The notes under the pieces: model-generated | What the model was told of the DNA's origin: nothing | The model's database searches: none | The model's input: only the letters and a program-made list of their open reading frames with translations | NCBI GenBank assembly: GCA_964540825.1 | Contig: CAZINT010000002.1 | Span: 64,477-128,476 of the forward strand | Direction of reading: 5' to 3' | DNA: 64,000 nt | From: an uncultured Gammaproteobacteria bacterium | GTDB lineage: Bacteria; Patescibacteriota; Patescibacteriia; Magasanikbacterales; GWA2-37-8 | Position numbers and translations under genes: made by a program | Part shown: one piece after another, positions 13,598 through 63,685 of the stretch | How positions within the stretch are numbered: the stretch's first letter is position 1 | Layout of the letters: every line of letters begins with the position of its first letter

Positions 13598-14029
13598 ATG
13601 AAAAAGGTAATTGCGTTTGGTACATTTGATGTCGTCCATCCGGGCCACGTACACATGCTTACCGAAGCCAAAAGTTATGGTGATTACTTGGTAGTGGTCA
13701 TTGCGCGCGATGCAACGGTAGCCGAAGTTAAAAAACATTCAACACTCCATTCAGAAACAACCCGGCTTAAACATATTGAGGCTTTAGGCATAGCCGACAA
13801 AGTCAGACTTGGCAATCTGGGTGATAAGTTCAAAGTAATCGCCGAGGAAGAGCCTGACATTGTTGCGCTCGGATATGACCAAAAGGTACCGATTGATAAA
13901 CTTTCAGCAGCCATAGACGATCATGTAAAAATTGTCCGTCTTTCGCCGTTTAAACCTGAAATTTACAAAAGTTCAAAATTAAAAAAATATGAAGATTCTT
14001 ATCGCGACGACCAATCCGGGAAAATTTAA
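13598..14029 (+). CDS. cytidylyltransferase-family nucleotidyltransferase (TagD / RibL-like)
   Basis: MKKVIAFGTFDVVHPGHVHMLTEAKSYGDYLVVVIARD closely resembles glycerol-3-phosphate cytidylyltransferase N-terminus (GTFDxxHxGH). Confidence 0.7.
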   Translation: MKKVIAFGTFDVVHPGHVHMLTEAKSYGDYLVVVIARDATVAEVKKHSTLHSETTRLKHIEALGIADKVRLGNLGDKFKVIAEEEPDIVALGYDQKVPIDKLSAAIDDHVKIVRLSPFKPEIYKSSKLKKYEDSYRDDQSGKI

Positions 14030-15014
14030 AGAAGCAATTTCCTTGTTTGCTGATTTGGACTACACATTCGTCAACCTTAAGGATCTTCACCTTGATGCAG
14101 ACGAACCTGACGAACCCTATGATACTACTTTTGAAAACGCGGTTCATAAAGCTCGTTATTACGGCAATAAATCTAAACTTCTGACTATTGCCGAAGATAC
14201 TGCTTTTCATGTAGATTTTTTACAAGGCGAACCTGGAGCTCGGGCAAAACGTTTTGGCAAAACCTCCGAAGAGCGTAATGCTAAAGTGCTCACGTCCCTG
14301 CGCGGGGTACCTAAAGCGCGGAGGGGAGCACATTTTCAAACTTCTGCCTGCCTTTACGACCCGTCAACACAGGCAGTAACGGTATTTAACGGGAAAGTTA
14401 ACGGCATTATTACGGACCAACCGCTCGGGGCAGTCCAAAAAGGGTTGGGGTATGATGTTATTTTTTACTACCCACCGCTTAAAAAAACTTTTGCGGAACT
14501 AACGCTTGAAGAAAAGAACACCGTTAGCCATCGGGGCCAAACCATGGCGCAGGTCAAACTTTTTTTAATGCGCTATTTTGCTTTTAAACAAATTATTGTC
14601 CCTTTGGGCATTATTGTAAAAGATCGCAAATTTTTCCTCAGCAAACGCCGCGACACCAGGCCTGAGTTCAACAATAAATGGGAATTTCCCGGCGGAGGAG
14701 TAGATAATGGCGAGGGAATAGTGGACGCATTGAAGCGCGAGCTTAAAGAAGAAACTGGTTTTAGTGTAACTGTTCTTGAACAATTGCCTAAAATATTGAC
14801 TGCAAGCGATAAAAAAGGTAGTTTTCCGTATCAGGTTTTTTTAATAGTGCACGTTTGTTCGATTGTATCCGGCAAACTTAGGACCGCTCCCGCAGAGTCG
14901 TCCGGCAGCGGATGGTTTACCTTAAAAGATATCAAAAAATTAGATTTGATGCCCTTGAATACAAAATGTTTTCAAGGTAAAAATCTAGCAATTCTTAAAA
15001 AATATATTGACTAA
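13989..15014 (+). CDS. RdgB/HAM1 non-canonical purine NTP pyrophosphatase fused to a C-terminal NUDIX hydrolase domain
   Basis: N-terminal ILIATTNPGKFKEA ... TVSHRGQ (Ham1 fold); C-terminal Nudix box GGGVDNGEGIVDALKRELKEETG. Confidence 0.85.
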   Translation: MKILIATTNPGKFKEAISLFADLDYTFVNLKDLHLDADEPDEPYDTTFENAVHKARYYGNKSKLLTIAEDTAFHVDFLQGEPGARAKRFGKTSEERNAKVLTSLRGVPKARRGAHFQTSACLYDPSTQAVTVFNGKVNGIITDQPLGAVQKGLGYDVIFYYPPLKKTFAELTLEEKNTVSHRGQTMAQVKLFLMRYFAFKQIIVPLGIIVKDRKFFLSKRRDTRPEFNNKWEFPGGGVDNGEGIVDALKRELKEETGFSVTVLEQLPKILTASDKKGSFPYQVFLIVHVCSIVSGKLRTAPAESSGSGWFTLKDIKKLDLMPLNTKCFQGKNLAILKKYID

Positions 15015-31060: not shown

Positions 31061-31777
31061 ATGGAGCATGCACCCTCAGACTACTTTAAAAACGACTGGC
31101 AAAGTTCACGTGAAAAAATTGTTAAGGAATTTCGTGAACTTATAGAACGTGGGCAACCCATGCCTCAGGAAGACTGGTCGCTTATTTGGGTTTTTAGTGG
31201 CCCAGAAGCAACATTTGAAGACAAACCCAATATTGAAACCAACGCGATTACCGGCACAAACTACCCTAATCAAACCCGAGAACGCTTTGAGACAGGCATT
31301 CGTATAGTGAGAGCAGTGACCGCGCTTCGTCTACGCAAACAAGAAGACCAAATTTCGAGTGAAGATATTAAAAATGCTGGTCCGATACTTTATTTTAATG
31401 GCCGAGACGAACAAAACGAGTATTTGCGAGGCATGTTGGCAACGGGAGAAAATAAAATTTTAAAAGAAATTCCTGCAAACAACATTGTTATATCAACGAG
31501 TACGGATATAGAAAACACCGGTCATCAGTTTATAGATTTTACCGAGCATTTTCCACATTTGCCACCAGAAGAAAAAACAATTTTAGTAAGCGACCTCTAC
31601 CACCTCCCCCGCATCAAACGATACGCCGAAACTAAACGGTACAGCTTAAAAAAAGATACCCTTGTTTTGTACCCAACAAAGCCGTACATCTTGCCCTTCG
31701 ATGAAAGCCTGGCAGAAATTCAGAAGATACTCCCCTATGAAAAAAAAGGTTTTATTGATCCAACTAAAGACATTTAA
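31061..31777 (+). CDS. hypothetical protein, possibly DUF218/YdcF-like
   Basis: IVISTSTDIENTGHQF ... TILVSDLYHLPRIKRY resembles the DUF218 core; weak assignment. Confidence 0.45.
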   Translation: MEHAPSDYFKNDWQSSREKIVKEFRELIERGQPMPQEDWSLIWVFSGPEATFEDKPNIETNAITGTNYPNQTRERFETGIRIVRAVTALRLRKQEDQISSEDIKNAGPILYFNGRDEQNEYLRGMLATGENKILKEIPANNIVISTSTDIENTGHQFIDFTEHFPHLPPEEKTILVSDLYHLPRIKRYAETKRYSLKKDTLVLYPTKPYILPFDESLAEIQKILPYEKKGFIDPTKDI

Positions 31778-52820: not shown

Positions 52821-54671
52821 TTATTCCAAGACCGCTTTAATACGGCGCACTCCGGCGCTGATCGCCTCTTCTTTAACAATTTTAAACTTTCCCATAGTAC
52901 CAGTCCGCTCAACATGCGGACCACCGCAGACTTCGCGACTATACGTCGGAGCTGCCGGATCAGCAGCGGCCATTTCATTAGCGTCCCCAACTGTATATAC
53001 TTTTACTTTTTCTTGATATTTATCTTCAAACAGTCCAATCGCACCTTTTGCTTTTGCTTCTTCAAAACTCATTTCAGCAAAACTAACCGGGTAATCATGG
53101 GCAATCGCACCATTAATCATATCTTCAGCCAGCTTAATTTGTTCGGCAGTCAATTTTTCCGGGTGCGCAAAATCAAAGCGCATGCGTTCTTGAGTAATAT
53201 TACTTCCCCGCTGCGTAGCGTGAGGACCGAGAATTTTAAGAAGTGTCGCATGGAGTAGATGTGTCGCAGTGTGATACTTGGTAGACATTTCGCTGTGATC
53301 CGCAAGACCGCCGGCAAATTTCTGTTCTGCACCCACACGAGATTTTTCCTGATGCTCTTTAAACGCTGCTTCAAAACCAGCCACATCAACCGTGAGGGCA
53401 TTTTCGAGCGCGAGCTCCTGAGTCATTTCGAGTGGGAAGCCGTAGGTATCATACAACTTGAAGGCATGTTTACCAGAAATTTCTTTAATAAGGACGCCGG
53501 TTTTTTCAAATGCCATTCTAAAGCCGTTAACTAATTTTTCAAATTCTTTAAGGCCCTGCTCAACGGTATTGTGAAACTTGGCTTCTTCGCGGGCCATTTC
53601 GGTTATCACAAATTCGCGGTTACGTTTGAGTTCTGGATAGACATCACCATAAATCTCGATCACCGTTTCGGCAATTGAAGAGCAGACATGGTCTTTGATG
53701 CCAAGCAAGCGTCCGTGGCGAACGGCGCGGCGAATCAGGCGGCGAACAATATACCCCTGATCAACATTGCTTGGGGCAACACCTTTATCATCGCCCATGA
53801 TCATGGTTGCAGTACGCAAATGATCAGCGACAATTCGCATGGAGCGCGTTACGTCTTTGTTTTCAATATATTCTTTACCGGAAACGGTTTGGATTTTTTG
53901 AATGATCGCCCACATCGTGTCAATCTGGAAGGCATCAGCAAAACCGTTCATAACCACGAGTGTGCGTTCAAGCCCCATGCCCGTATCAACATTTTGCTGT
54001 TCAAGCGGCCTAAAAGTACCATCTTCATTTTTAAAATACTGCATGAAGACATCGTTCCAAATTTCAAGCCAGTTGTCTTCGTCGTTGCCTGGATTACTAT
54101 TTTCGGGTGGAAATTCCCCTTCCCCCATCCAATAAAACATTTCGGTGTCTGGGCCACATGGCCCCGTTGTACCAGCCGGACCCCACCAATTATTTTTCTT
54201 CGGGAGATACGCAATTTTATGCTCGGGCATGCCGAGCGCCTTCCACTTGGCAGCAGACTCATCGTCACGCGGCGCATCATTGTCGCCGGCAAACACCGAT
54301 ACCGCCAATTTACGCAGATCGATTCCCAAATATTCTTTGCTGGTCAAAAATTCAAAGCTCCATTCAATCGCTTCGTTTTTAAAATAATCACCCAAAGACC
54401 AGTTACCCATCATTTCAAAAAAGGTCATGTGACGCGCATCCCCCACCTCATCTATATCTTGGGTACGGATACATTTTTGTACGTTGGTAAGACGGTTACC
54501 GGACGGATGTTTCTGGCCCAATAAATACGGAACCAGCGGATGCATGCCGGCAGTTGTAAACAAAACCGTCGGATCATTGTCCGGAATAACCGAAGCCGAA
54601 GCAATAGCCGCATGGCCCTTGCTTTGGAAAAAAGAAATGTATTTTTGACGGAGTTCCTGGCTCGTAAGCAT
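52821..54671 (-). CDS. alaS: alanyl-tRNA synthetase, short form lacking the C-terminal C-Ala domain
   Basis: N-terminal MLTSQELRQKYISFFQSKGH...DPTVLFTTAGM; editing-domain motifs HTATHLLH and CGGPHV near the C-terminus; about 617 aa versus about 870 aa for canonical AlaRS. Confidence 0.9.
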   Translation of the reverse strand: MLTSQELRQKYISFFQSKGHAAIASASVIPDNDPTVLFTTAGMHPLVPYLLGQKHPSGNRLTNVQKCIRTQDIDEVGDARHMTFFEMMGNWSLGDYFKNEAIEWSFEFLTSKEYLGIDLRKLAVSVFAGDNDAPRDDESAAKWKALGMPEHKIAYLPKKNNWWGPAGTTGPCGPDTEMFYWMGEGEFPPENSNPGNDEDNWLEIWNDVFMQYFKNEDGTFRPLEQQNVDTGMGLERTLVVMNGFADAFQIDTMWAIIQKIQTVSGKEYIENKDVTRSMRIVADHLRTATMIMGDDKGVAPSNVDQGYIVRRLIRRAVRHGRLLGIKDHVCSSIAETVIEIYGDVYPELKRNREFVITEMAREEAKFHNTVEQGLKEFEKLVNGFRMAFEKTGVLIKEISGKHAFKLYDTYGFPLEMTQELALENALTVDVAGFEAAFKEHQEKSRVGAEQKFAGGLADHSEMSTKYHTATHLLHATLLKILGPHATQRGSNITQERMRFDFAHPEKLTAEQIKLAEDMINGAIAHDYPVSFAEMSFEEAKAKGAIGLFEDKYQEKVKVYTVGDANEMAAADPAAPTYSREVCGGPHVERTGTMGKFKIVKEEAISAGVRRIKAVLE

Positions 54672-54679
54672 ACAATATT

Positions 54680-55786
54680 TTAAATAGTTTCGATCACTCC
54701 CCCACCCAAACATTCGCCATCCTTGTAGAAGACCGCAAATTGACCCGGGGTGGGTGCGCGTTGCGGTTCATTAAAAACGAGCGTTTGCGCAACTGCGGTG
54801 CTTGATGTGTCTTCTTGAAGCACCGCCTTTTGGAGCGGTTGGCGATGACGGAGTCGCACTTCACATTCTAATGGAAACGTAGGCGGTTGTCCACTAATCC
54901 AATGAATTTGGGTAAGCGATATTTCCTTTTTATAGAGCAAGGGATCAGTATCAAAACCAACAACAAGCTCGTTAGTCGCAAAATTTTTACCAACCACGTA
55001 CAAGGGCTTCGTATCTTGCCCCTTAACAGCCAACGATTTAGTTCCGGTTACACCAAAACTGCGCTGACCAATCGTATAAAATGCCAAACCCTCGTGGACA
55101 CCCAATACTTCACCGCTCGACGTAACAATTTTTCCCGGAGTTGGCTTAATGCGCGTTTGCAAAAATTCCTTCATAGGAACTTCACCGACAAAACAGATTC
55201 CCATACTTTCTTCTTTTTCAGCCACAGGCAAATTAAATTTTTTTGCCAATTCGCGAACTTCTGGTTTAGTGTATTCACCCACCGGAAATAGTGCGTGCGA
55301 CAACTGCTGCTGAGTAAGCTGATGAAGAAAGTACGTTTGGTCTTTATTTTCATCCTTTGCTTGAATCAAATGGACAATGCCTACATCTGAAACAGCGGTG
55401 CGAGCATAGTGCCCGGTAGCCAAATATTCAAACCCCAGTTCCCTTGCCTTATCGAGCCAGAAACCAAATTTAATATATTTATTACACAGCACATCAGGAT
55501 TAGGGGTACGCCCGGCTTCGTATTCACTGAACATGTATTCCAAAACTTTCGCCTGATATTCCTTTGTAAAATCAAATTTTAAAATCGGAATGCCGATACT
55601 TGCCGCAACGCGGACAGCATCTTGGTACTCCGGTACCCAGCAGGACTCCCCAAACTTATTTTGGCCGTCATAATTAATCATGTAGGCAGCAGTAACATCA
55701 TACCCTTGCGAAACCAAAAGCTCCGCAGCGACTGCAGAATCTACACCCCCAGAAAGGGCCGTGAGAATTTTTACTTGAGGTTTCAT
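54680..55786 (-). CDS. mnmA: tRNA-specific 2-thiouridylase MnmA
   Basis: PP-loop SGGVDSAVAA at N-terminus; MnmA-like central and C-terminal beta-barrel regions. Confidence 0.9.
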   Translation of the reverse strand: MKPQVKILTALSGGVDSAVAAELLVSQGYDVTAAYMINYDGQNKFGESCWVPEYQDAVRVAASIGIPILKFDFTKEYQAKVLEYMFSEYEAGRTPNPDVLCNKYIKFGFWLDKARELGFEYLATGHYARTAVSDVGIVHLIQAKDENKDQTYFLHQLTQQQLSHALFPVGEYTKPEVRELAKKFNLPVAEKEESMGICFVGEVPMKEFLQTRIKPTPGKIVTSSGEVLGVHEGLAFYTIGQRSFGVTGTKSLAVKGQDTKPLYVVGKNFATNELVVGFDTDPLLYKKEISLTQIHWISGQPPTFPLECEVRLRHRQPLQKAVLQEDTSSTAVAQTLVFNEPQRAPTPGQFAVFYKDGECLGGGVIETI

Positions 55787-56212: not shown

Positions 56213-56542
56213 TTAGCTGTTGCGGCGAGCCTGCATGCAGTCTCGGCAATATACTGGCTTGTCACCGGTTGGCTGGAAAGGAAGCTGAGTGATTTGAGCA
56301 CCGCAGCTAGCACAGTTCAAGTTGACACTGTACATTTGGCGAGGAGCGCGAGGACCGCGACTCATACCGCCACCCATTCCTCCAGCGCCACCAGCACGAT
56401 TTTGGCGATACGTGCGGTTACAGTCAGAGCAGTAAACCGGACGATCTCCAGAAGGTTGAAAAGGCAACTGTGAAACGTGGGCACCGCATTGTGAGCAGGT
56501 AAGGTCCACGTCAAACATTTGACGATCAGTACCAAAGGCCAT
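56213..56542 (-). CDS. tandem zinc-ribbon protein (two CxxC...PF-P...C-x2-C modules joined by a Gly-rich linker), YacG-like modules
   Basis: internal duplication TCSQCGAHVSQLPFQPSGDRPVYCSDC / NCASCGAQITQLPFQPTGDKPVYCRDC; linker RAGGAGGMGGGMSRGPR; GC about 55%. Confidence 0.65.
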   Translation of the reverse strand: MAFGTDRQMFDVDLTCSQCGAHVSQLPFQPSGDRPVYCSDCNRTYRQNRAGGAGGMGGGMSRGPRAPRQMYSVNLNCASCGAQITQLPFQPTGDKPVYCRDCMQARRNS

Positions 56543-58044: not shown

Positions 58045-59022
58045 CTAAAGGATACTTTGGTGCTCCTGAACAATAGCTTCGACTTCATCGGCATTTTCCG
58101 CTTCCATGAGTTTCACGCGTAATTCTTTCGCTCCGTCAAAGCCATTCACATACGCCTTATAGTGTTTTTTCATTAAGGCAAAACTTTTTTTCTCACCGAG
58201 TAATTTTTCAAACAGATGCGTGTGCTCAACCAGTACGCGCGTTTTTTCTTCCGGCGTAATTGTCTTGTAATCTCGTTCGCGATTAAATAACCACGGATTG
58301 CCAAAAATTCCTCGCCCAATCATAACACCGTCACAACCGGTTTCGCGAACGCGTTGATTGGCTTCGTCTAAGTCTTTTACATCGCCATTTCCCAAAATAA
58401 GCGTCTTGTCCGAAGACGAATCATACTTATCGCGAATGGCTACGGCCCGCGCAATTTCTTCCCAGTGCGCCGGTACGAGTGACATTTCTTTTTTAGTGCG
58501 GGCATGCAGTGTAATTGCGGCTGGTTCTGCTTCGAGCAAATTGGGTAACCAGGTATCAAGTACATTTTTATTATACCCAAGGCGCGTTTTAACCGAGACC
58601 GGCAATTTGCCAGCACCTCGTTTGGTGGCCGCAATAATTTCTTTCGCTAATTCCGGATACTGGATAAGCGCCGCACCCGAGCATTGTTTACCGCTGATGC
58701 TACGCTCAGGGCAGCCCATATTAATATCGATACCGTCAAAACCAAGTTCTTGAACCAAAAGAGCAGTTTGGTAAAAATTTTCCGGTTTCGAGCCAAAAAC
58801 CTGAGCAATAATCGGGCGCTCCGATTCGTCATAGATGAAATCGGTTAGCAGCTCAGCTCTACCCGGCGAACATAAGCCGTCGCACGAAACAAATTCCGTC
58901 CAGAGCACATCAGGCTTGCCGTACTTGGCAATAATAAATCGAAAAGCCGCGTCCGTGACATTGGCCATGGGCGCGAGGACAAAAATGGGTTTGGGTAAGT
59001 TTTTCCAAAAGCCTTGAACCAT
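58045..59022 (-). CDS. tRNA-dihydrouridine synthase (DusB-like)
   Basis: N-terminal FVLAPMANVTDAAFR, TIM-barrel FMN-binding motifs, C-terminal helical domain. Confidence 0.85.
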   Translation of the reverse strand: MVQGFWKNLPKPIFVLAPMANVTDAAFRFIIAKYGKPDVLWTEFVSCDGLCSPGRAELLTDFIYDESERPIIAQVFGSKPENFYQTALLVQELGFDGIDINMGCPERSISGKQCSGAALIQYPELAKEIIAATKRGAGKLPVSVKTRLGYNKNVLDTWLPNLLEAEPAAITLHARTKKEMSLVPAHWEEIARAVAIRDKYDSSSDKTLILGNGDVKDLDEANQRVRETGCDGVMIGRGIFGNPWLFNRERDYKTITPEEKTRVLVEHTHLFEKLLGEKKSFALMKKHYKAYVNGFDGAKELRVKLMEAENADEVEAIVQEHQSIL

Positions 59023-59143
59023 ATAAAGCCTTTATTTTAGCGATTCTACATACTAACGAGTTCCCTCACTACTGTCAATTAGTGTGTTTGTTACATTTTT
59101 AGAATAGTGTTATTATACCAGAGTTTTAAAGGAGTCTATCTTT

Positions 59144-61555
59144 TTGTATATGAATAAAAATTCGCTACCAACGATTCTGGTAATCTTGGGCGCAACCGGC
59201 GATTTGATGACTAAAAAAATTGTCCCCGCGCTTTTTCATTTACACCTTGAAAATAATTTACCGGCTTTATTTCAAATTGTCGGCTATTCTCACCGCGCAC
59301 TTAACAACGACTCCTTTCGGGAACACCTAAAAGCAATTATTGAAAAAGACCCCCGTTACAATATAACCGACCCCGCAGAAGTCGGAAAATTTTTACACCG
59401 CTTTGTTTTTCAGCAAGGAGATTTTGAAAAACAGTCCGACTACGTTGCGCTGGCCAAGCGCTTGGGCGCAACGGATGTAGAATGGAAAGCCTGCTCGAAT
59501 AAATTGTTTTACCTCGCTGTTCCTCCGGACTTCTTGAAAACAATCGTTAATCACCTGGCGTCTTCGGAACTCACCAAACCCTGTTCCCCCGAAGAGGGCT
59601 GGACCCGGGTCTTGGTTGAAAAGCCTTTTGGGCGCGATTTGGCTACTGCAGAAAAACTGGATGAACTTCTCGGCAAACTTTTTAAAGAGGAACAAATTTA
59701 TCGCATCGACCACTATTTGGCCAAAGAAATGCTTCAGAATATTTTGACGTTTCGTTTTTCCAACAATCTCTTTGAAAAAATTTGGAACAATCAGTTTATC
59801 GAGCAGATTGAAATTAAACTGTGGGAAACTTTAGGCGTAGAACTCCGCGGACCGTTTTATGATGGTGTTGGGGCGCTACGCGATATGGGACAAAATCATA
59901 TCATGCAGATGCTGGCACTCGTTACCATGGAACGACCTAATGCTTTTACGGCCGCTGCGATTCGCGATCAGCGCGTGGCAATTTTAAAAACACTTCCCGA
60001 GCTTACCAAAAAAGAAGTTGCGGAAAATACGCTTCGCGCACAGTATGAAAGCTACCAGACGATTAAAGGCGTATCCCCCACTTCTACCACTGAGACCTAT
60101 TTTAAAGTTAAAACGGAACTGACGTCACCCCGCTGGAAGGGCGTGCCGATTATTATGGAAAGCGGCAAACGCATGGGCGAAAAGAAAAAAGAAATTATTA
60201 TAACCTTTAAACACGCTGCCCCGTGCCTGTGCCCGCCCGGCGACAAGCACAACAAAAATCAAATTATTTTTGGGCTTGATCCGGTAGAAGGTATTACGAT
60301 TAAGTTCTGGTCAAAAGTTCCCGGGCTTGATTTTAAAATCAACGAACGCACCATCGACTTCATGCTCCGCACGGAAGCAAGCACATCACAGTATGTTGAA
60401 GAATATAAAAAACTTTTGCTTGACAGCATAACGGGCGACCAAACACTCTTCAATGATACGCGCGAAGTACGCGAAATGTGGCGGTTTATCGATTCGATTA
60501 GCGATGTTTGGACAAAACAAATTCCAAAACTCCAAAGCTATGCGCCTGATACAAATACCATCGCAACCACCCACACTTTTGGATCACTCGAAAATACTTC
60601 GAAAGCCCCGCTTAAAAAAATGGGTTTAATCGGTCTTGGTAAAATGGGCGGCAACTTAGCGAGACGTTTGCACTCTCAAGGATGGGACATCACCGCCTTC
60701 AATCGCACTGCCGAAGTTACCCGAGAAATTGAAACCGAAGGAATTAACGGCGCGTATTCGCTACCTGATCTCGTCAAAAGCCTACCAACTCCACGCATTA
60801 TTTGGCTGATGGTGCCTGCAGGTAAACCGGTTGACGACATGCTGTTCGGTAAAACTGGACTCGTACCACTCCTTAAAAAAGGTGATATTGTTATTGACGG
60901 CGGAAATTCATTTTATGGCGACGCCGCTAAACGGGCAGCAAAACTCAAAAAGTTCGGTATACACTTTTTGGACTGTGGTACATCAGGGGGACCAGGCGGC
61001 GCACTGGCCGGCCCATGCCTCATGATCGGCGGAGAACGAAAAATATTTGAAAAAATTGAATATCTCTTCCGCGATTTGGCTGCCCCTGACGCCTATCAAT
61101 TCTTTGATGGGTTCGGCGCCGGGCATTTTGTGAAGATGGTTCACAATGGTATCGAATACGGCATGATGCAAGCCCTGGCCGAAGGATTTGCGGTGATGAA
61201 AAAATCCAAGTTTAAACTTGATTTAGAAAAGGTGACTGATATTTATAACCATGGCAGCGTTATTGAATCGAGACTCGTCGGCTGGCTAGCTTCCGGCTTT
61301 AAAGCCTACGGACAGGATTTGAAAGGCATATCCGGGTCAGTGAACTACACCGGCGAAGGAGAATGGACAGTGCAAGCAGCCAAAAAATTAAAAGTTCCAG
61401 CGCCAGTTATTGAAGATTCATTTAAATTCCGCGTGGCATCACAAAAAAAACCAAGTTACACGGGGCAGCTCTTGTCGACACTGCGCAATCAATTTGGCGG
61501 GCACAACGCAGTACACACCAAGGCAGCCAAACCTCTAGTTAAAAAGAAAAAATAA
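59144..61555 (+). CDS. fusion protein: glucose-6-phosphate 1-dehydrogenase (N-terminal about 490 aa) + 6-phosphogluconate dehydrogenase-like domain (C-terminal about 300 aa)
   Basis: G6PD motifs ILGATGDLMTKK and RIDHYLAKE; C-terminal MGLIGLGKMGGNLARRL NAD(P)-binding N-terminus of 6PGDH and GTSGGPGGALAGPCLMIGG; single uninterrupted ORF. Confidence 0.85.
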   Translation: MYMNKNSLPTILVILGATGDLMTKKIVPALFHLHLENNLPALFQIVGYSHRALNNDSFREHLKAIIEKDPRYNITDPAEVGKFLHRFVFQQGDFEKQSDYVALAKRLGATDVEWKACSNKLFYLAVPPDFLKTIVNHLASSELTKPCSPEEGWTRVLVEKPFGRDLATAEKLDELLGKLFKEEQIYRIDHYLAKEMLQNILTFRFSNNLFEKIWNNQFIEQIEIKLWETLGVELRGPFYDGVGALRDMGQNHIMQMLALVTMERPNAFTAAAIRDQRVAILKTLPELTKKEVAENTLRAQYESYQTIKGVSPTSTTETYFKVKTELTSPRWKGVPIIMESGKRMGEKKKEIIITFKHAAPCLCPPGDKHNKNQIIFGLDPVEGITIKFWSKVPGLDFKINERTIDFMLRTEASTSQYVEEYKKLLLDSITGDQTLFNDTREVREMWRFIDSISDVWTKQIPKLQSYAPDTNTIATTHTFGSLENTSKAPLKKMGLIGLGKMGGNLARRLHSQGWDITAFNRTAEVTREIETEGINGAYSLPDLVKSLPTPRIIWLMVPAGKPVDDMLFGKTGLVPLLKKGDIVIDGGNSFYGDAAKRAAKLKKFGIHFLDCGTSGGPGGALAGPCLMIGGERKIFEKIEYLFRDLAAPDAYQFFDGFGAGHFVKMVHNGIEYGMMQALAEGFAVMKKSKFKLDLEKVTDIYNHGSVIESRLVGWLASGFKAYGQDLKGISGSVNYTGEGEWTVQAAKKLKVPAPVIEDSFKFRVASQKKPSYTGQLLSTLRNQFGGHNAVHTKAAKPLVKKKK

Positions 61556-61573: not shown

Positions 61574-63421
61574 ATGTCGCAGACTCCAACTTCCGAATTG
61601 CAAAAATTAGCCACGCTCATTCGATATTTTATTTTGACTTCGACCACTGACGCAGGCTCAGGGCACGCCACTTCATCACTTTCTGCCACCGACCTTCTCA
61701 CGGTCCTTATGTTTGGAGGGTTCTTTAAAGCTGATCTTAAGAATCCCAAGAATCCCAACAATGACCGGCTTATTTTTTCCAAAGGCCATGCTTCCCCACT
61801 GTTTTACTCGCTTTACGCAGCAGCCGGCGCAATCGAAGCCAGCGAACTTGATACACTCCGCAAATTCGGGAGTCGCCTGGAAGGCCATCCTACGCTCATG
61901 TTTCCCTATACAGAAGTGCCGACCGGCTCACTCGGCCAAGGACTGTCTGTGGGGCTTGGCATGGCGTTGAATGCCAAATACTTAGACAAAACTTCGTATC
62001 GCACCTATGTGCTTTTGGGTGATAGCGAAATGGCGGAAGGGTCGGTTTGGGAAGCTCTGGAATCAGCCGCATTCTATAAAACCAATAATCTTGTTGCCAT
62101 TATTGATGTGAATCGCCTTGGCCAGCGCGGTGAAACGATGCTTGGCTATGACATGGAAAGTTATTACAAAAAGGTAACTGCCTTTGGTTGGAACGCTGCT
62201 GTTATTGATGGACATTCTTTGGAAGAAATCGCCGCAGCTTTTTCGCAAGCCGAAAAGAGCGATAAACCATTTTGTATTATCGCCAAAACAGTCAAAGGAA
62301 AAGGTGTTTCTTTTTTGGAAAATAAAGACGGCTGGCACGGCAAAGCACTTTCACAAGAAGAACTACAAAAAGCATTGCCTGAACTTGGTCAAATTAACAT
62401 GGATGTTCGAGGCGCCGTAGCTGCACCAGAAAAAAATGGTGTTACAAAAAAACGTACCGCAATCAAGGTTGCTGTGACAGACTATACCGACGGTAAATTA
62501 GTCTCAACGCGAAAGGCTTATGGCAACGCCTTGCTAAATTTAGCACCAGCATTTGAAAATCTTGTTGTGCTTGACGCCGAAACAAGCAATTCAACATATG
62601 CCGAAACCATGAAAAAAGTTGCTCCGGAACGGTTTTTTGAAATGTATATTGCTGAACAAAATATGGTTGGTACAGCACTTGGAATGGCCAAGCGCGGCAA
62701 AATTCCGCTTGTTTCAACCTTTGCAGCATTTTTTAGCCGCGCCTTTGATCAAATCCGCATGAGCCAGTATGCAGGCGCTCACATGGTGTTTGTCGGCTCC
62801 CATGCTGGCGTATCTATTGGTGAAGATGGTGCTTCACAAATGGCCCTTGAAGATATTGCCTTATTTAGAACGCTGCATAATAGCGCCGTACTCTACCCGA
62901 GCGATGCTATCAGCACAGAGGGATGCGCTCAAGAAGCCGCCAAGCATGAAGGGATTGTCTATATCCGTACCACGCGCAAAGATACCCCGGTCCTCTACCC
63001 CCAGACTGAGACATTTCCCATTGGGGGCAGCAAAACGTTGCGCGCTAGTCCTGCGGACACGGTAACGCTTGTAGGCGCCGGAATAACTGTTCACGAAGCA
63101 CTCACTGCGCATGACAAGCTTATAAAAGAAGGAATTACAGCTAGAGTTATTGATCTGTATAGTGTTAAACCGCTTGATACAACCACCCTTCGTAAAGCTG
63201 CGACAGACACCGGCCACGTGATTGTTATCGAAGATCACTATGCCGAAGGCGGAATTGCCGAAGCAGTTCGTTCAGCACTTGGGGAAATGGCGGGAGCAGT
63301 GACCAGCCTCGCTGTGACCAAACAACCCAAGAGCGGTAAGCCTGAAGAACTGCTTGATTACGAAGGCATCTCGGCAAACGCGATTGTAAACACAGTTAAA
63401 GAATTGCTTGCCAGAAAATAA
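61574..63421 (+). CDS. tkt: transketolase
   Basis: TPP-binding N-terminal region with GSGHATSS and GDSEMAEG; pyrimidine-binding and C-terminal domains present. Confidence 0.9.
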   Translation: MSQTPTSELQKLATLIRYFILTSTTDAGSGHATSSLSATDLLTVLMFGGFFKADLKNPKNPNNDRLIFSKGHASPLFYSLYAAAGAIEASELDTLRKFGSRLEGHPTLMFPYTEVPTGSLGQGLSVGLGMALNAKYLDKTSYRTYVLLGDSEMAEGSVWEALESAAFYKTNNLVAIIDVNRLGQRGETMLGYDMESYYKKVTAFGWNAAVIDGHSLEEIAAAFSQAEKSDKPFCIIAKTVKGKGVSFLENKDGWHGKALSQEELQKALPELGQINMDVRGAVAAPEKNGVTKKRTAIKVAVTDYTDGKLVSTRKAYGNALLNLAPAFENLVVLDAETSNSTYAETMKKVAPERFFEMYIAEQNMVGTALGMAKRGKIPLVSTFAAFFSRAFDQIRMSQYAGAHMVFVGSHAGVSIGEDGASQMALEDIALFRTLHNSAVLYPSDAISTEGCAQEAAKHEGIVYIRTTRKDTPVLYPQTETFPIGGSKTLRASPADTVTLVGAGITVHEALTAHDKLIKEGITARVIDLYSVKPLDTTTLRKAATDTGHVIVIEDHYAEGGIAEAVRSALGEMAGAVTSLAVTKQPKSGKPEELLDYEGISANAIVNTVKELLARK

Positions 63422-63584: not shown

Positions 63585-63597
63585 ACTACCTGCTACA

Positions 63598-63629
63598 GCG
63601 ATCGGTTACACTAACCGATCGCTTTTTTT
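63598..63629 (+). terminator. rho-independent terminator
   Basis: AGCGATCGGTT-acact-AACCGATCGCT followed by TTTTTTT. Confidence 0.85.
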
Positions 63630-63685
63630 ATACCACAAAAGCTCAATAAAAAAACCGACTTTAGAGGCTAAAGTCGGTATAATTT

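What the first reader, a model, noticed from the sequence alone, without database searches (positions are those of the whole stretch)
59144..61555. Single-polypeptide fusion of G6PD and a 6-phosphogluconate-dehydrogenase-like domain
One 803-aa ORF carries a complete G6PD (RIDHYLAKE signature) followed without a stop by a short-form 6PGDH-type domain (GLIGLGKMGGNLA, GTSGGPGGALAGPCLMIGG). The product would join steps 1 and 3 of the oxidative pentose-phosphate branch. No stand-alone 6-phosphogluconolactonase is seen nearby, and transketolase follows. Such Zwf-Gnd fusions are not the canonical arrangement.
Basis: partly seen in the sequence, partly recalled or inferred. Interest (0 to 1): 0.55.

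Follow-up and report, generated by a model that had tools for sequence, protein, structure and literature searches.

The report
Fused G6PD–6PGDH pentose-phosphate enzyme gene
One gene really does encode glucose-6-phosphate dehydrogenase joined to a short-form 6-phosphogluconate dehydrogenase, but the same fusion sits in hundreds of uncultured bacteria in public databases, so it is a genuine, uncharacterised but not rare enzyme.

Summary
Window 59144–61555 (+) is one uninterrupted 803-aa ORF (801 aa from the ATG at 59150). It carries a complete Zwf/G6PD (aa 13–471), a roughly 20-aa variable linker, and a complete short-chain 6PGDH (aa 492–790). Both halves score above the curated NCBIfam cut-offs.

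It is not an assembly artefact. The gene is base-for-base identical in a separate Logan assembly. The 120 best database relatives of this protein are all four-domain fusions from Patescibacteria (CPR), and the 120 best relatives of a Coriobacteriia copy are too.

All catalytic and substrate-binding motifs of both enzymes are invariant or nearly so across 133 fusions. The linker is not conserved.

The most likely function is a bifunctional NADP-type enzyme for steps 1 and 3 of the oxidative pentose-phosphate branch, co-transcribed with transketolase. Lactone hydrolysis in between would be spontaneous or done by a lactonase encoded elsewhere. The window has none; a syntenic relative has one beside the fusion.

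The fusion probably arose by stop-codon loss in a tight, in-frame zwf→gnd operon. The only published precedent I found is a doubted diatom G6PD–6PGDH fusion. Interest is modest.

The parts
59088..59116 (+). Sigma-70-like promoter candidate (TTGTTA-17-TATTAT with an upstream TG) in the 121-nt gap between the divergent Dus gene and the fusion gene
   Evidence: This is a consensus match only, and the number of sites in the region is not above the shuffled controls. AGGAG at 59130-59134 lies 9 nt before the TTG and 15 nt before the ATG.
59144..61555 (+). zwf-gnd fusion ORF, 803 aa from TTG 59144 or 801 aa from ATG 59150; stop at 61553-61555
   Evidence: Identical in Logan contig L081.
59180..59740 (+). 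G6PD N-terminal Rossmann domain (aa 13-199): GATGDL 16-21, Arg51, EKPFG 159-163
   Evidence: Pfam PF00479, 2.3e-56. Motif conservation in 133 fusions.
59744..60556 (+). G6PD C-terminal beta+alpha domain (aa 201-471). The RIDHYLAKE motif (aa 187-195) lies just upstream, at the end of the N-terminal domain; the catalytic D247...QNH252 lies within this domain
   Evidence: Pfam PF02781, 5.5e-83. D189/H190/Y191/K194 and D247/Q250/N251/H252 are present in 132-133 of 133 fusions.
60557..60619 (+). Inter-enzyme linker (aa 472-492), variable in sequence and length across the family. Its disordered core is aa 481-487 (60584-60604). Met493 (60620-62) precedes the Gnd Rossmann loop
   Evidence: The AF2 model has pLDDT below 50 only at model residues 1-3, 479-485 and 791-801 (801-aa numbering). 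Linker alignment: no conserved residues, and a Met before GxIGLG in only 2 of 133.
60617..61084 (+). 6PGDH NAD(P)-binding domain (aa 492-647): GLIGLGKMGG 494-503, Asn520-Arg521-Thr522, GGNS 586-589, SGGP 614-617
   Evidence: Pfam PF03446, 5e-45. Alignments to the short-chain 6PGDH structures 4e21, 6vpb, 8ihe and 10gw. NR(T/S) is present in most fusions.
61121..61513 (+). Single helical hemi-domain of short-chain 6PGDH (aa 660-790). The adjacent catalytic block GAGHFVKMVHNGIEYG spans aa 658-673, and the C-terminal R781-x2-FG-x-H787 motif lies at 61484-61504
   Evidence: Pfam PF00393 matches profile positions 1-117 of 290 only. NF007161 aligns aa 492-790 to positions 2-299 of 302. The motif is invariant in 133 of 133 fusions, and its role is described in bioRxiv 10.64898/2026.01.21.700892.
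61505..61552 (+). Lysine-rich C-terminal tail (NAVHTKAAKPLVKKKK), predicted disordered
   Evidence: It is not conserved in the family consensus.
61574..63421 (+). Transketolase gene, 18 nt downstream on the same strand; probably co-transcribed
   Evidence: NF004559, 868 bits, and the Pfam Transketolase N/pyr/C domains. No terminator-like site lies between the two genes. The same fusion...tkt order is seen in relative L085 but not in L082 or L084.
63597..63623 (+). Terminator-like hairpin (12-bp stem followed by T7) after tkt; the likely end of the transcription unit
   Evidence: pattern match only.

Best explanation
This is a genuine gene for a bifunctional Zwf-Gnd enzyme in a Patescibacteria (CPR) bacterium. 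The N-terminal module oxidises glucose-6-phosphate to 6-phosphoglucono-delta-lactone and reduces NADP+. The lactone is then hydrolysed to 6-phosphogluconate outside the fusion, either spontaneously or by a stand-alone DevB-type lactonase encoded elsewhere. The C-terminal short-chain 6PGDH module oxidatively decarboxylates 6-phosphogluconate to ribulose-5-phosphate and makes a second NAD(P)H. The transketolase encoded 18 nt downstream passes the pentose phosphates into the non-oxidative branch. Because a hydrolysis step lies between the two reactions, the fusion most likely provides fixed 1:1 expression and co-assembly rather than direct channelling. The gnd module sits at the C-terminus, which leaves free the C-terminal helix and RX2FGXH tail that short-chain 6PGDHs swap between subunits of a tetramer. 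A tetramer of the fusion could in principle satisfy both the 6PGDH tetramer and two G6PD dimers. The fusion probably arose by loss of the zwf stop codon in a tightly packed, in-frame zwf-then-gnd operon, was occasionally re-split, and was transferred laterally between Patescibacteria and Coriobacteriia. Shown: the ORF, the domain identities, motif conservation, and the distribution. Inferred: both activities, NADP+ preference, the oligomer, co-transcription, and the evolutionary route.
For: There is one ORF with four domains, and both halves pass curated equivalog or subfamily cut-offs. The gene is identical over 2406 nt, and the surrounding 7779 nt have 0 mismatches, in a separate Logan assembly. 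All 120 best relatives are four-domain fusions of 765-834 aa from many CPR lineages. At least 12 full-length fused representatives at 50% clustering reach down to 38% identity. All 120 best relatives of a Coriobacteriia copy are also fused, on contigs up to 2.67 Mb. In 133 aligned fusions every catalytic or binding motif of both enzymes is present in at least 125 of 133, and most are 133 of 133, while the linker is unconserved and an internal Met occurs in only 2 of 133 (invariant columns). Asn-Arg-Thr at 520-522 matches the NADP+-defining triplet of 6PGDH (PMC8900737). The NAD+-type short-chain structures have Asp at the first position instead (alignments). The AF2 model has pLDDT 89.3 and pTM 0.74, with two folded modules and disorder only in the linker core and the termini. 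Among 80 species-representative loci there are 14 fusions, all zwf>gnd, and none among about 38 gnd>zwf pairs. In-frame unfused pairs with 12-60-nt gaps exist, such as L003 'VIV*RRTMQKTIG' and the Mycobacterium 'TAA-GGAGAA-..ATG' arrangement.
Against: No activity, cofactor or oligomer data exist for any member, and I found no paper on the bacterial fusion. The lactonase step is unaccounted for in this window, and the rest of the genome could not be inspected. Linkage to tkt is not conserved in the family. The promoter and terminator calls are pattern matches at background frequency. The argument from domain order rests on a sample biased towards relatives of the query, and the NJ trees are rough. 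PAE was not available, so the relative placement of the two modules in the model is unknown.
Confidence: 0.85

Rival explanations
1. The fusion is an artefact. A sequencing or assembly error, for example in the A7 run at 60614-60620, removed the zwf stop or shifted the frame, and the organism really has two genes.
For: A homopolymer lies at the junction. Unfused, in-frame zwf>gnd pairs with very short gaps do exist in relatives.
Against: The sequence is identical in a second assembly, although that assembly may come from the same reads. The 84%-identical P0002 and more than 240 further clusters carry the same uninterrupted architecture with unrelated linker sequences. Most family members have no Met where a separate gnd would start.
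Confidence: 0.02
2. The C-terminal module is not a 6PGDH but another beta-hydroxyacid dehydrogenase (HIBADH, tartronate-semialdehyde reductase or similar), so the product does not join steps 1 and 3.
For: The same superfamily gives weak hits to TIGR01692, TIGR01505, NF008592 and PF14833.
Against: Those hits score 73-82 bits against cut-offs of 292-397 bits, whereas gnd_rel and NF007161 pass their cut-offs. The best solved relatives are all 6PGDHs. The GHFxKMxHNGIEYG block and the 6PG-binding RX2FGXH motif are invariant.
Confidence: 0.03
3. The gene is fused but the cell makes separate enzymes, by internal initiation at Met493 (ATG 60620) or by proteolysis in the disordered linker. The fusion would then be only a transcriptional and translational packaging device.
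For: An ATG sits exactly where a free-standing gnd would start. The linker core is predicted disordered. Kroth et al. 2008 mention possible post-translational cleavage of diatom metabolic fusion proteins.
Against: No Shine-Dalgarno-like sequence precedes ATG 60620. Only 2 of 133 fusions have Met at this position, the usual sequence being 'KKEI', so internal initiation cannot be the family's mode. Cleavage was not tested.
Confidence: 0.1

Closest known systems
G6PDH/6PGDH fusion protein of the diatom Phaeodactylum tricornutum (protein 54663 / XP_002183714; Kroth et al. 2008, PMC2173943; Stover et al. 2011, PMC3148214)
   Same: It joins the same two enzymes, steps 1 and 3 of the oxidative branch, and is named in the same order (G6PDH then 6PGDH) with a short spacer (8-25 aa, or 39 nt). 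It also lacks a lactonase domain.
   Different: It is eukaryotic, was reported as restricted to one species, and its reality was doubted by the annotators. The present family is bacterial, contains hundreds of members, and uses the short-chain (tetrameric-type) 6PGDH. I did not compare sequences with the diatom protein, and which type of 6PGDH it carries was not checked here.
G6PD::6PGL bifunctional enzymes (Plasmodium GluPho, Giardia/Trichomonas G6PD::6PGL, metazoan H6PD)
   Same: G6PD is fused to another oxidative-branch enzyme. The fusion has been proposed to improve pathway efficiency.
   Different: Those fusions join consecutive steps 1 and 2 through a Glucosamine_iso-type lactonase domain. 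Here no such domain is present, and the fused steps are not consecutive.
Stand-alone short-chain 6PGDHs (Gluconobacter oxydans Go6PGDH 6VPB/10GW/6XEQ, M. tuberculosis Gnd2 8IHE, Geobacter 4E21; TIGR00872 gnd_rel)
   Same: The module is about 300 aa with a single helical hemi-domain, all catalytic residues, and the C-terminal RX2FGXH motif.
   Different: Here the N-terminus is tethered to Zwf. The solved short-chain enzymes have Asp at the start of the cofactor-specificity turn (D-L-N, D-R-D, D-H-D, D-R-T), whereas the fusion has Asn-Arg-Thr, the NADP+-type triplet.
Separate zwf-gnd and gnd-zwf(-pgl) operons of bacteria
   Same: The same two gene families are adjacent. Unfused zwf>gnd pairs occur in CPR, Bacillales and Mycobacterium, often in frame with 12-60-nt gaps.
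   Different: A stop codon and a separate start are present. In many phyla the order is gnd>zwf and a DevB-type pgl follows.

Membership tests
Glucose-6-phosphate dehydrogenase (Zwf; TIGR00871, PF00479+PF02781) | Whole-protein score above the curated equivalog cut-off | tested here: met
   464.4 bits against a cut-off of 400.6; aligned aa 10-467 to model positions 3-463 of 486.
Glucose-6-phosphate dehydrogenase (Zwf; TIGR00871, PF00479+PF02781) | Dinucleotide fingerprint GxxGDL, the EKPxG motif, the substrate/catalytic motif RIDHYLGKE, and the catalytic His in D..QNH (established G6PD motifs; the assignment of roles is from my own knowledge) | tested here: met
   GATGDL 16-21, EKPFG 159-163, RIDHYLAKE 187-195 and D247..Q250-N251-H252 are all present, and are conserved in 125-133 of 133 fusions.
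Glucose-6-phosphate dehydrogenase (Zwf; TIGR00871, PF00479+PF02781) | G6P-dependent NAD(P)+ reduction | not testable with these tools
   Requires an enzyme assay.
Short-chain decarboxylating 6-phosphogluconate dehydrogenase (TIGR00872 gnd_rel / NF007161) | Score above the curated cut-offs, with models for other beta-hydroxyacid dehydrogenases below theirs | tested here: met
   330.5 against 297.2 and 354.5 against 271. HIBADH scores 73 against 292 and tartronate-semialdehyde reductase 79-82 against 341-397.
Short-chain decarboxylating 6-phosphogluconate dehydrogenase (TIGR00872 gnd_rel / NF007161) | Catalytic Lys and Glu within GHFxKMxHNGIEYG, and the Ser-Gly-Gly loop | tested here: met
   K664, E671 and S614-G-G are invariant in 133 of 133 fusions. 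They align with the same blocks in 4e21, 6vpb, 8ihe and 10gw.
Short-chain decarboxylating 6-phosphogluconate dehydrogenase (TIGR00872 gnd_rel / NF007161) | C-terminal RX2FGXH motif that binds 6PG from the neighbouring subunit | tested here: met
   R781-N-Q-F-G-G-H787; R, F, G and H are invariant in 133 of 133. The motif is defined in bioRxiv 10.64898/2026.01.21.700892.
Short-chain decarboxylating 6-phosphogluconate dehydrogenase (TIGR00872 gnd_rel / NF007161) | A single helical hemi-domain (about 300 aa) rather than the duplicated one of long-chain enzymes | tested here: met
   The module is about 310 aa. PF00393 matches only profile positions 1-117 of 290, and the long-chain models TIGR00873 and NF006765 score below their cut-offs.
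Short-chain decarboxylating 6-phosphogluconate dehydrogenase (TIGR00872 gnd_rel / NF007161) | Homotetramer with a swapped C-terminal helix | not testable with these tools
   Only a monomer model could be made.
G6PD-6PGDH fusion (diatom type) | Both enzymes in one polypeptide, with G6PD N-terminal and no lactonase domain | tested here: met
   for this protein. The diatom architecture is taken from the papers only. Common descent was not tested and is unlikely given the taxonomic gap.
G6PD::6PGL bifunctional enzymes (GluPho/H6PD type) | Presence of a Glucosamine_iso (PF01182) lactonase domain fused to G6PD | tested here: not met
   There is no PF01182 hit in the 803-aa protein or anywhere in the window.

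The most novel reading that the evidence does not exclude
The fused enzyme makes a dedicated 6-phosphogluconolactonase dispensable. Within a Zwf4-Gnd4 assembly the lactone would be released next to the 6PGDH sites and hydrolysed there, by the complex itself or fast enough spontaneously. Streamlined genomes such as this one would then have lost pgl: compare relative L085, which still has pgl beside the fusion, with this window, where Dus abuts the fusion. That would be a three-step oxidative branch run by one polypeptide.
Probability: 0.1. Interest if true: 0.6.

Novelty: new member of a known kind. Interest (0 to 1): 0.3.

Why it matters
If both activities are confirmed, this family would be the first characterised bacterial enzyme that carries both NADPH-producing steps of the oxidative pentose-phosphate branch on one chain. 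It bears on how CPR bacteria with minimal metabolism obtain NADPH and pentoses, and on whether a lactonase is needed at all. It offers a natural test of what a fusion achieves when the fused steps are not consecutive. It also has an annotation consequence. Public records name these proteins only 'glucose-6-phosphate dehydrogenase', so gnd may be scored as missing in metabolic reconstructions of Patescibacteria and Coriobacteriia. A compact two-NADPH module could be useful for cofactor regeneration. None of this overturns current understanding.

Tried and rejected
1. Junction artefact: rejected, because the independent assembly is identical and the architecture is conserved.
2. Internal start at Met493 as a family feature: rejected, since only 2 of 133 have it.
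3. Apparent single-ORF 'fusions' in high-GC loci L043, L058 and L072 from the first stop-to-stop test: these turned out to be spurious alternative-frame ORFs once the frames of the tblastn matches were used.
4. Search for a lactonase in the window: Pfam on 20 candidate-size ORFs and a custom DevB-type HMM on all ORFs found nothing. Window ORFs outside those 20 were not scanned for a YbhE-type (PF10282) lactonase.
5. tkt linkage as a conserved operon: it is not general. It is present in L081 and L085 and absent in L082 and L084.
6. Nine literature searches for a bacterial or CPR Zwf-Gnd fusion found none. Only the diatom case and synthetic constructs turned up.
7. No tRNA genes were found in the window.
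8. Organism identity was not pursued beyond 'Patescibacteria-like', judged from the named relatives.
9. Fold search was not run, because sequence matches to solved G6PD and 6PGDH structures were already decisive.
Full report
**Observation**

The window holds one uninterrupted ORF at 59144–61555 on the + strand. It is 803 aa from a TTG start. An ATG two codons downstream (59150) gives the 801-aa form that is already in public databases.

Pfam places G6PD_N at aa 13–199, G6PD_C at 201–471, NAD_binding_2 at 492–647 and the first helical half of 6PGD at 660–770. NCBIfam's curated models are passed by both halves:
- TIGR00871 zwf: 464 bits against a cut-off of 401.
- NF007161: 354 bits against 271.
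- TIGR00872 gnd_rel: 330 bits against 297.

Models for other β-hydroxyacid dehydrogenases score far below their cut-offs, as do the long-chain Gnd models. The junction DNA has no stop or frame change. Its only weak point is a run of seven A at 60614–60620 that ends in the ATG of Met493.

**Artefact or real**

The protein-coding sequence (2406 nt), and 7779 nt around it, are identical with no mismatch in a separately assembled Logan contig from run SRR11567520. That assembly may come from the same reads.

The architecture is also conserved:
- The 120 best relatives among 5.8 billion clustered proteins are all 765–834 aa with all four domains. They are 55–84% identical and are named from many CPR lineages (Portnoy-, Taylor-, Harrison-, Roizman-, Buchanan-, Levy-, Magasanik- and Uhrbacteria).
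- In the exhaustive search of representatives clustered at 50% identity, at least 12 full-length fusions and several junction-spanning fragments appear, down to 38% identity.
- A second large fused group exists in Actinomycetota. All 120 best relatives of the fusion in a 'Slackia'-labelled MAG (GC 0.68) are four-domain fusions named Coriobacteriia, Anaerosomatales or Actinomycetota. Their contigs reach 2.67 Mb, well above typical CPR genome size as I know it.

An assembly error at this one junction is therefore excluded for practical purposes.

**Are both halves working enzymes?**

In an alignment of 133 fusions, every motif I checked is invariant or nearly so (invariant columns of a 69-sequence alignment).

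- Zwf half: GxxGDL, Arg51, EKPFG, RIDHYLAKE with D189/H190/Y191/K194, and D247…Q250-N251-H252.
- Gnd half: GxIGLGxMG, N588, S614-G-G-P, G658-x-GHFxKMxHNGIEYG with K664 and E671, W741, and R781-x2-F-G-x-H787.

The last motif is the RX2FGXH element. In tetrameric short-chain 6PGDHs it is supplied by the neighbouring subunit to bind the phosphate and a hydroxyl of 6-phosphogluconate (bioRxiv 10.64898/2026.01.21.700892).

The turn after the first β-strand of the Gnd module reads Asn520-Arg521-Thr522. This is the triplet that defines NADP+ specificity in 6PGDH (PMC8900737). The solved short-chain enzymes, including the NAD+-dependent Gnd2, have Asp at the first position (alignments). NADP+ preference is an inference from this.

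By contrast, the roughly 20-residue linker shows no conserved residue and varies in length. A Met before the Gnd Rossmann loop occurs in only 2 of 133 sequences, the query and its closest relative. Internal initiation therefore cannot be how the family works.

An AlphaFold2 model built on 69 homologues has mean pLDDT 89.3 and pTM 0.74. It shows two folded modules, with disorder confined to the linker core (residues 479–485 of the 801-aa form) and the two termini. No solved structure contains both halves.

**Context**

- Transketolase starts 18 nt after the stop. No terminator-like hairpin lies between the two genes. A strong one follows tkt, and a promoter-like site with a nearby AGGAG precedes the fusion. 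These signals are pattern matches only.
- The window contains no recognisable 6-phosphogluconolactonase.
- A relative whose fusion is 63% identical is informative. It shares the order AlaRS–MnmA–zinc-ribbon–Dus…fusion…tkt, but has four extra genes between Dus and the fusion. The first is a 220-aa Glucosamine_iso (DevB-type 6PGL) protein. In the window, Dus and the fusion are only 121 nt apart.
- The family therefore co-exists with a separate lactonase in at least one genome. Its absence here is local, reflecting either loss or relocation.
- Linkage to tkt is not general.

**Origin**

The 80 species-representative genome loci were classified by the reading frames of the two halves:

| Arrangement | Loci |
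|---|---|
| Single-ORF fusion, zwf→gnd | 14 |
| Adjacent but separate, zwf→gnd | 21 |
| Adjacent but separate, gnd→zwf | about 38 |
| Fused, gnd→zwf | 0 |

The separate zwf→gnd pairs come from CPR, Fictibacillus, Brevibacillus and Mycobacterium. The gnd→zwf pairs are often followed by pgl.

Many unfused zwf→gnd pairs are in frame, with only 12–60 nt between them. One Parcubacteria MAG reads '…VIV*RRTMQKTIGIIGLG'. Loss of a single stop codon would be enough to make the fusion, and the linker would correspond to the old Zwf tail plus the intergenic spacer.

In rough NJ trees, the fused genes and a few split ones (L003, L018, L021) intermingle within one CPR-type clade. The high-GC Coriobacteriia copies nest inside that clade. 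This suggests an old fusion with occasional re-splitting and lateral transfer. These trees are not robust, and the sample is biased towards relatives of the query.

The exclusive zwf→gnd order fits the need of short-chain 6PGDH for a free, swapped C-terminal helix. This is my inference.

**Mechanism proposed**

The product is most likely a bifunctional, NADP-type enzyme that carries out steps 1 and 3 of the oxidative branch. Because lactone hydrolysis lies between the two reactions, strict channelling is unlikely. Fixed stoichiometry, co-assembly and economy of regulatory sequence in a streamlined genome are the more likely benefits. A tetramer could satisfy both parent oligomers.

**Comparison with what is known**

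The only published G6PD–6PGDH fusion I could find is the Phaeodactylum tricornutum protein. It was reported as unique in nr in 2011 and was doubted by annotators. A 2024 review still cites it as the sole case.

The well-studied fusions join G6PD to the lactonase instead. Nine full-text searches found no description of the bacterial fusion. That library misses most subscription journals, so the point may have been made elsewhere.

Public records name these proteins simply 'glucose-6-phosphate dehydrogenase'.

**Verdict**

The finding is real and correctly interpreted. It is one member of a large, already deposited but uncharacterised family, and it extends a known kind of fusion. I rate it a new member of a known kind, with interest of about 0.3.

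Noticed in passing
P0241 (735 aa; found, scanned): A different fusion: phosphoglucose isomerase (PF00342, aa 64-430) joined to a short-chain 6PGDH (aa 442-713), 49% identical to the Gnd half of the query.
   Followed up: partly
P0136 (868 aa): A CPR-type Zwf (53% identical, aa 5-446) followed by about 420 residues with no Pfam match. This may be another fusion partner, or a read-through.
   Followed up: no
L008, L009, L010 and proteins P0273-P0392: A large clade of the same Zwf-Gnd fusion occurs in high-GC Coriobacteriia, Anaerosomatales and other Actinomycetota MAGs, on contigs up to 2.67 Mb. In rough NJ trees it nests within the CPR fused clade, which suggests lateral transfer of the already fused gene.
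   Followed up: partly
L003:4900-5000 (Parcubacteria MAG JBEEJY010000010.1): zwf and gnd are separated by a single in-frame TAG and three codons ('VIV*RRTMQKTIGIIGLG'), in a gene pair as close to the query as true fusions are. It is either the pre-fusion state or a recent re-split. Mycobacterium loci L022, L025, L026 and L029 show a similar in-frame TAA-GGAGAA-ATG arrangement.
   Followed up: partly
L085:6094-9806 compared with window 59022-59144: A syntenic relative carries four genes (a DevB-type 6PGL, a 238-aa ORF, glutamine synthetase and a 160-aa ORF) between Dus and the fusion. All four are missing from the window, where the gap is 121 nt.
   Followed up: partly
window 13989-15014 (+): A single 341-aa ORF combines a Ham1p-like (ITPase) domain (aa 3-190) with a NUDIX domain (aa 207-320), so two 'house-cleaning' nucleotide pyrophosphatases sit in one protein.
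   Followed up: no
window 56213-56542 (-): A 109-aa protein has two near-repeats of a CxxC...CxxC zinc-ribbon separated by a Gly-rich stretch. The corresponding gene in L085 hits PF23477 zf_Tbcl_2.
   Followed up: no
window 52821-54713 (-): The alanyl-tRNA synthetase-like ORF is only 630 aa (618 aa in L085, with the tRNA-synt_2c and tRNA_SAD domains). From my own knowledge, typical bacterial AlaRS is about 870 aa, so this looks like a truncated form.
   Followed up: no
window 63597-63678: Two strong hairpins lie back to back. One is at 63597-63623 on the + strand. The other, at 63654-63678, is readable on both strands. They sit between the convergent tkt gene and the next minus-strand gene and probably form a bidirectional terminator region.
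   Followed up: no
window 31061-31777 (+): A 238-aa ORF with no Pfam hit. An unrelated 238-aa ORF, also without a Pfam hit, sits near the fusion in L085; a tblastn search with it found no match in the window.
   Followed up: partly
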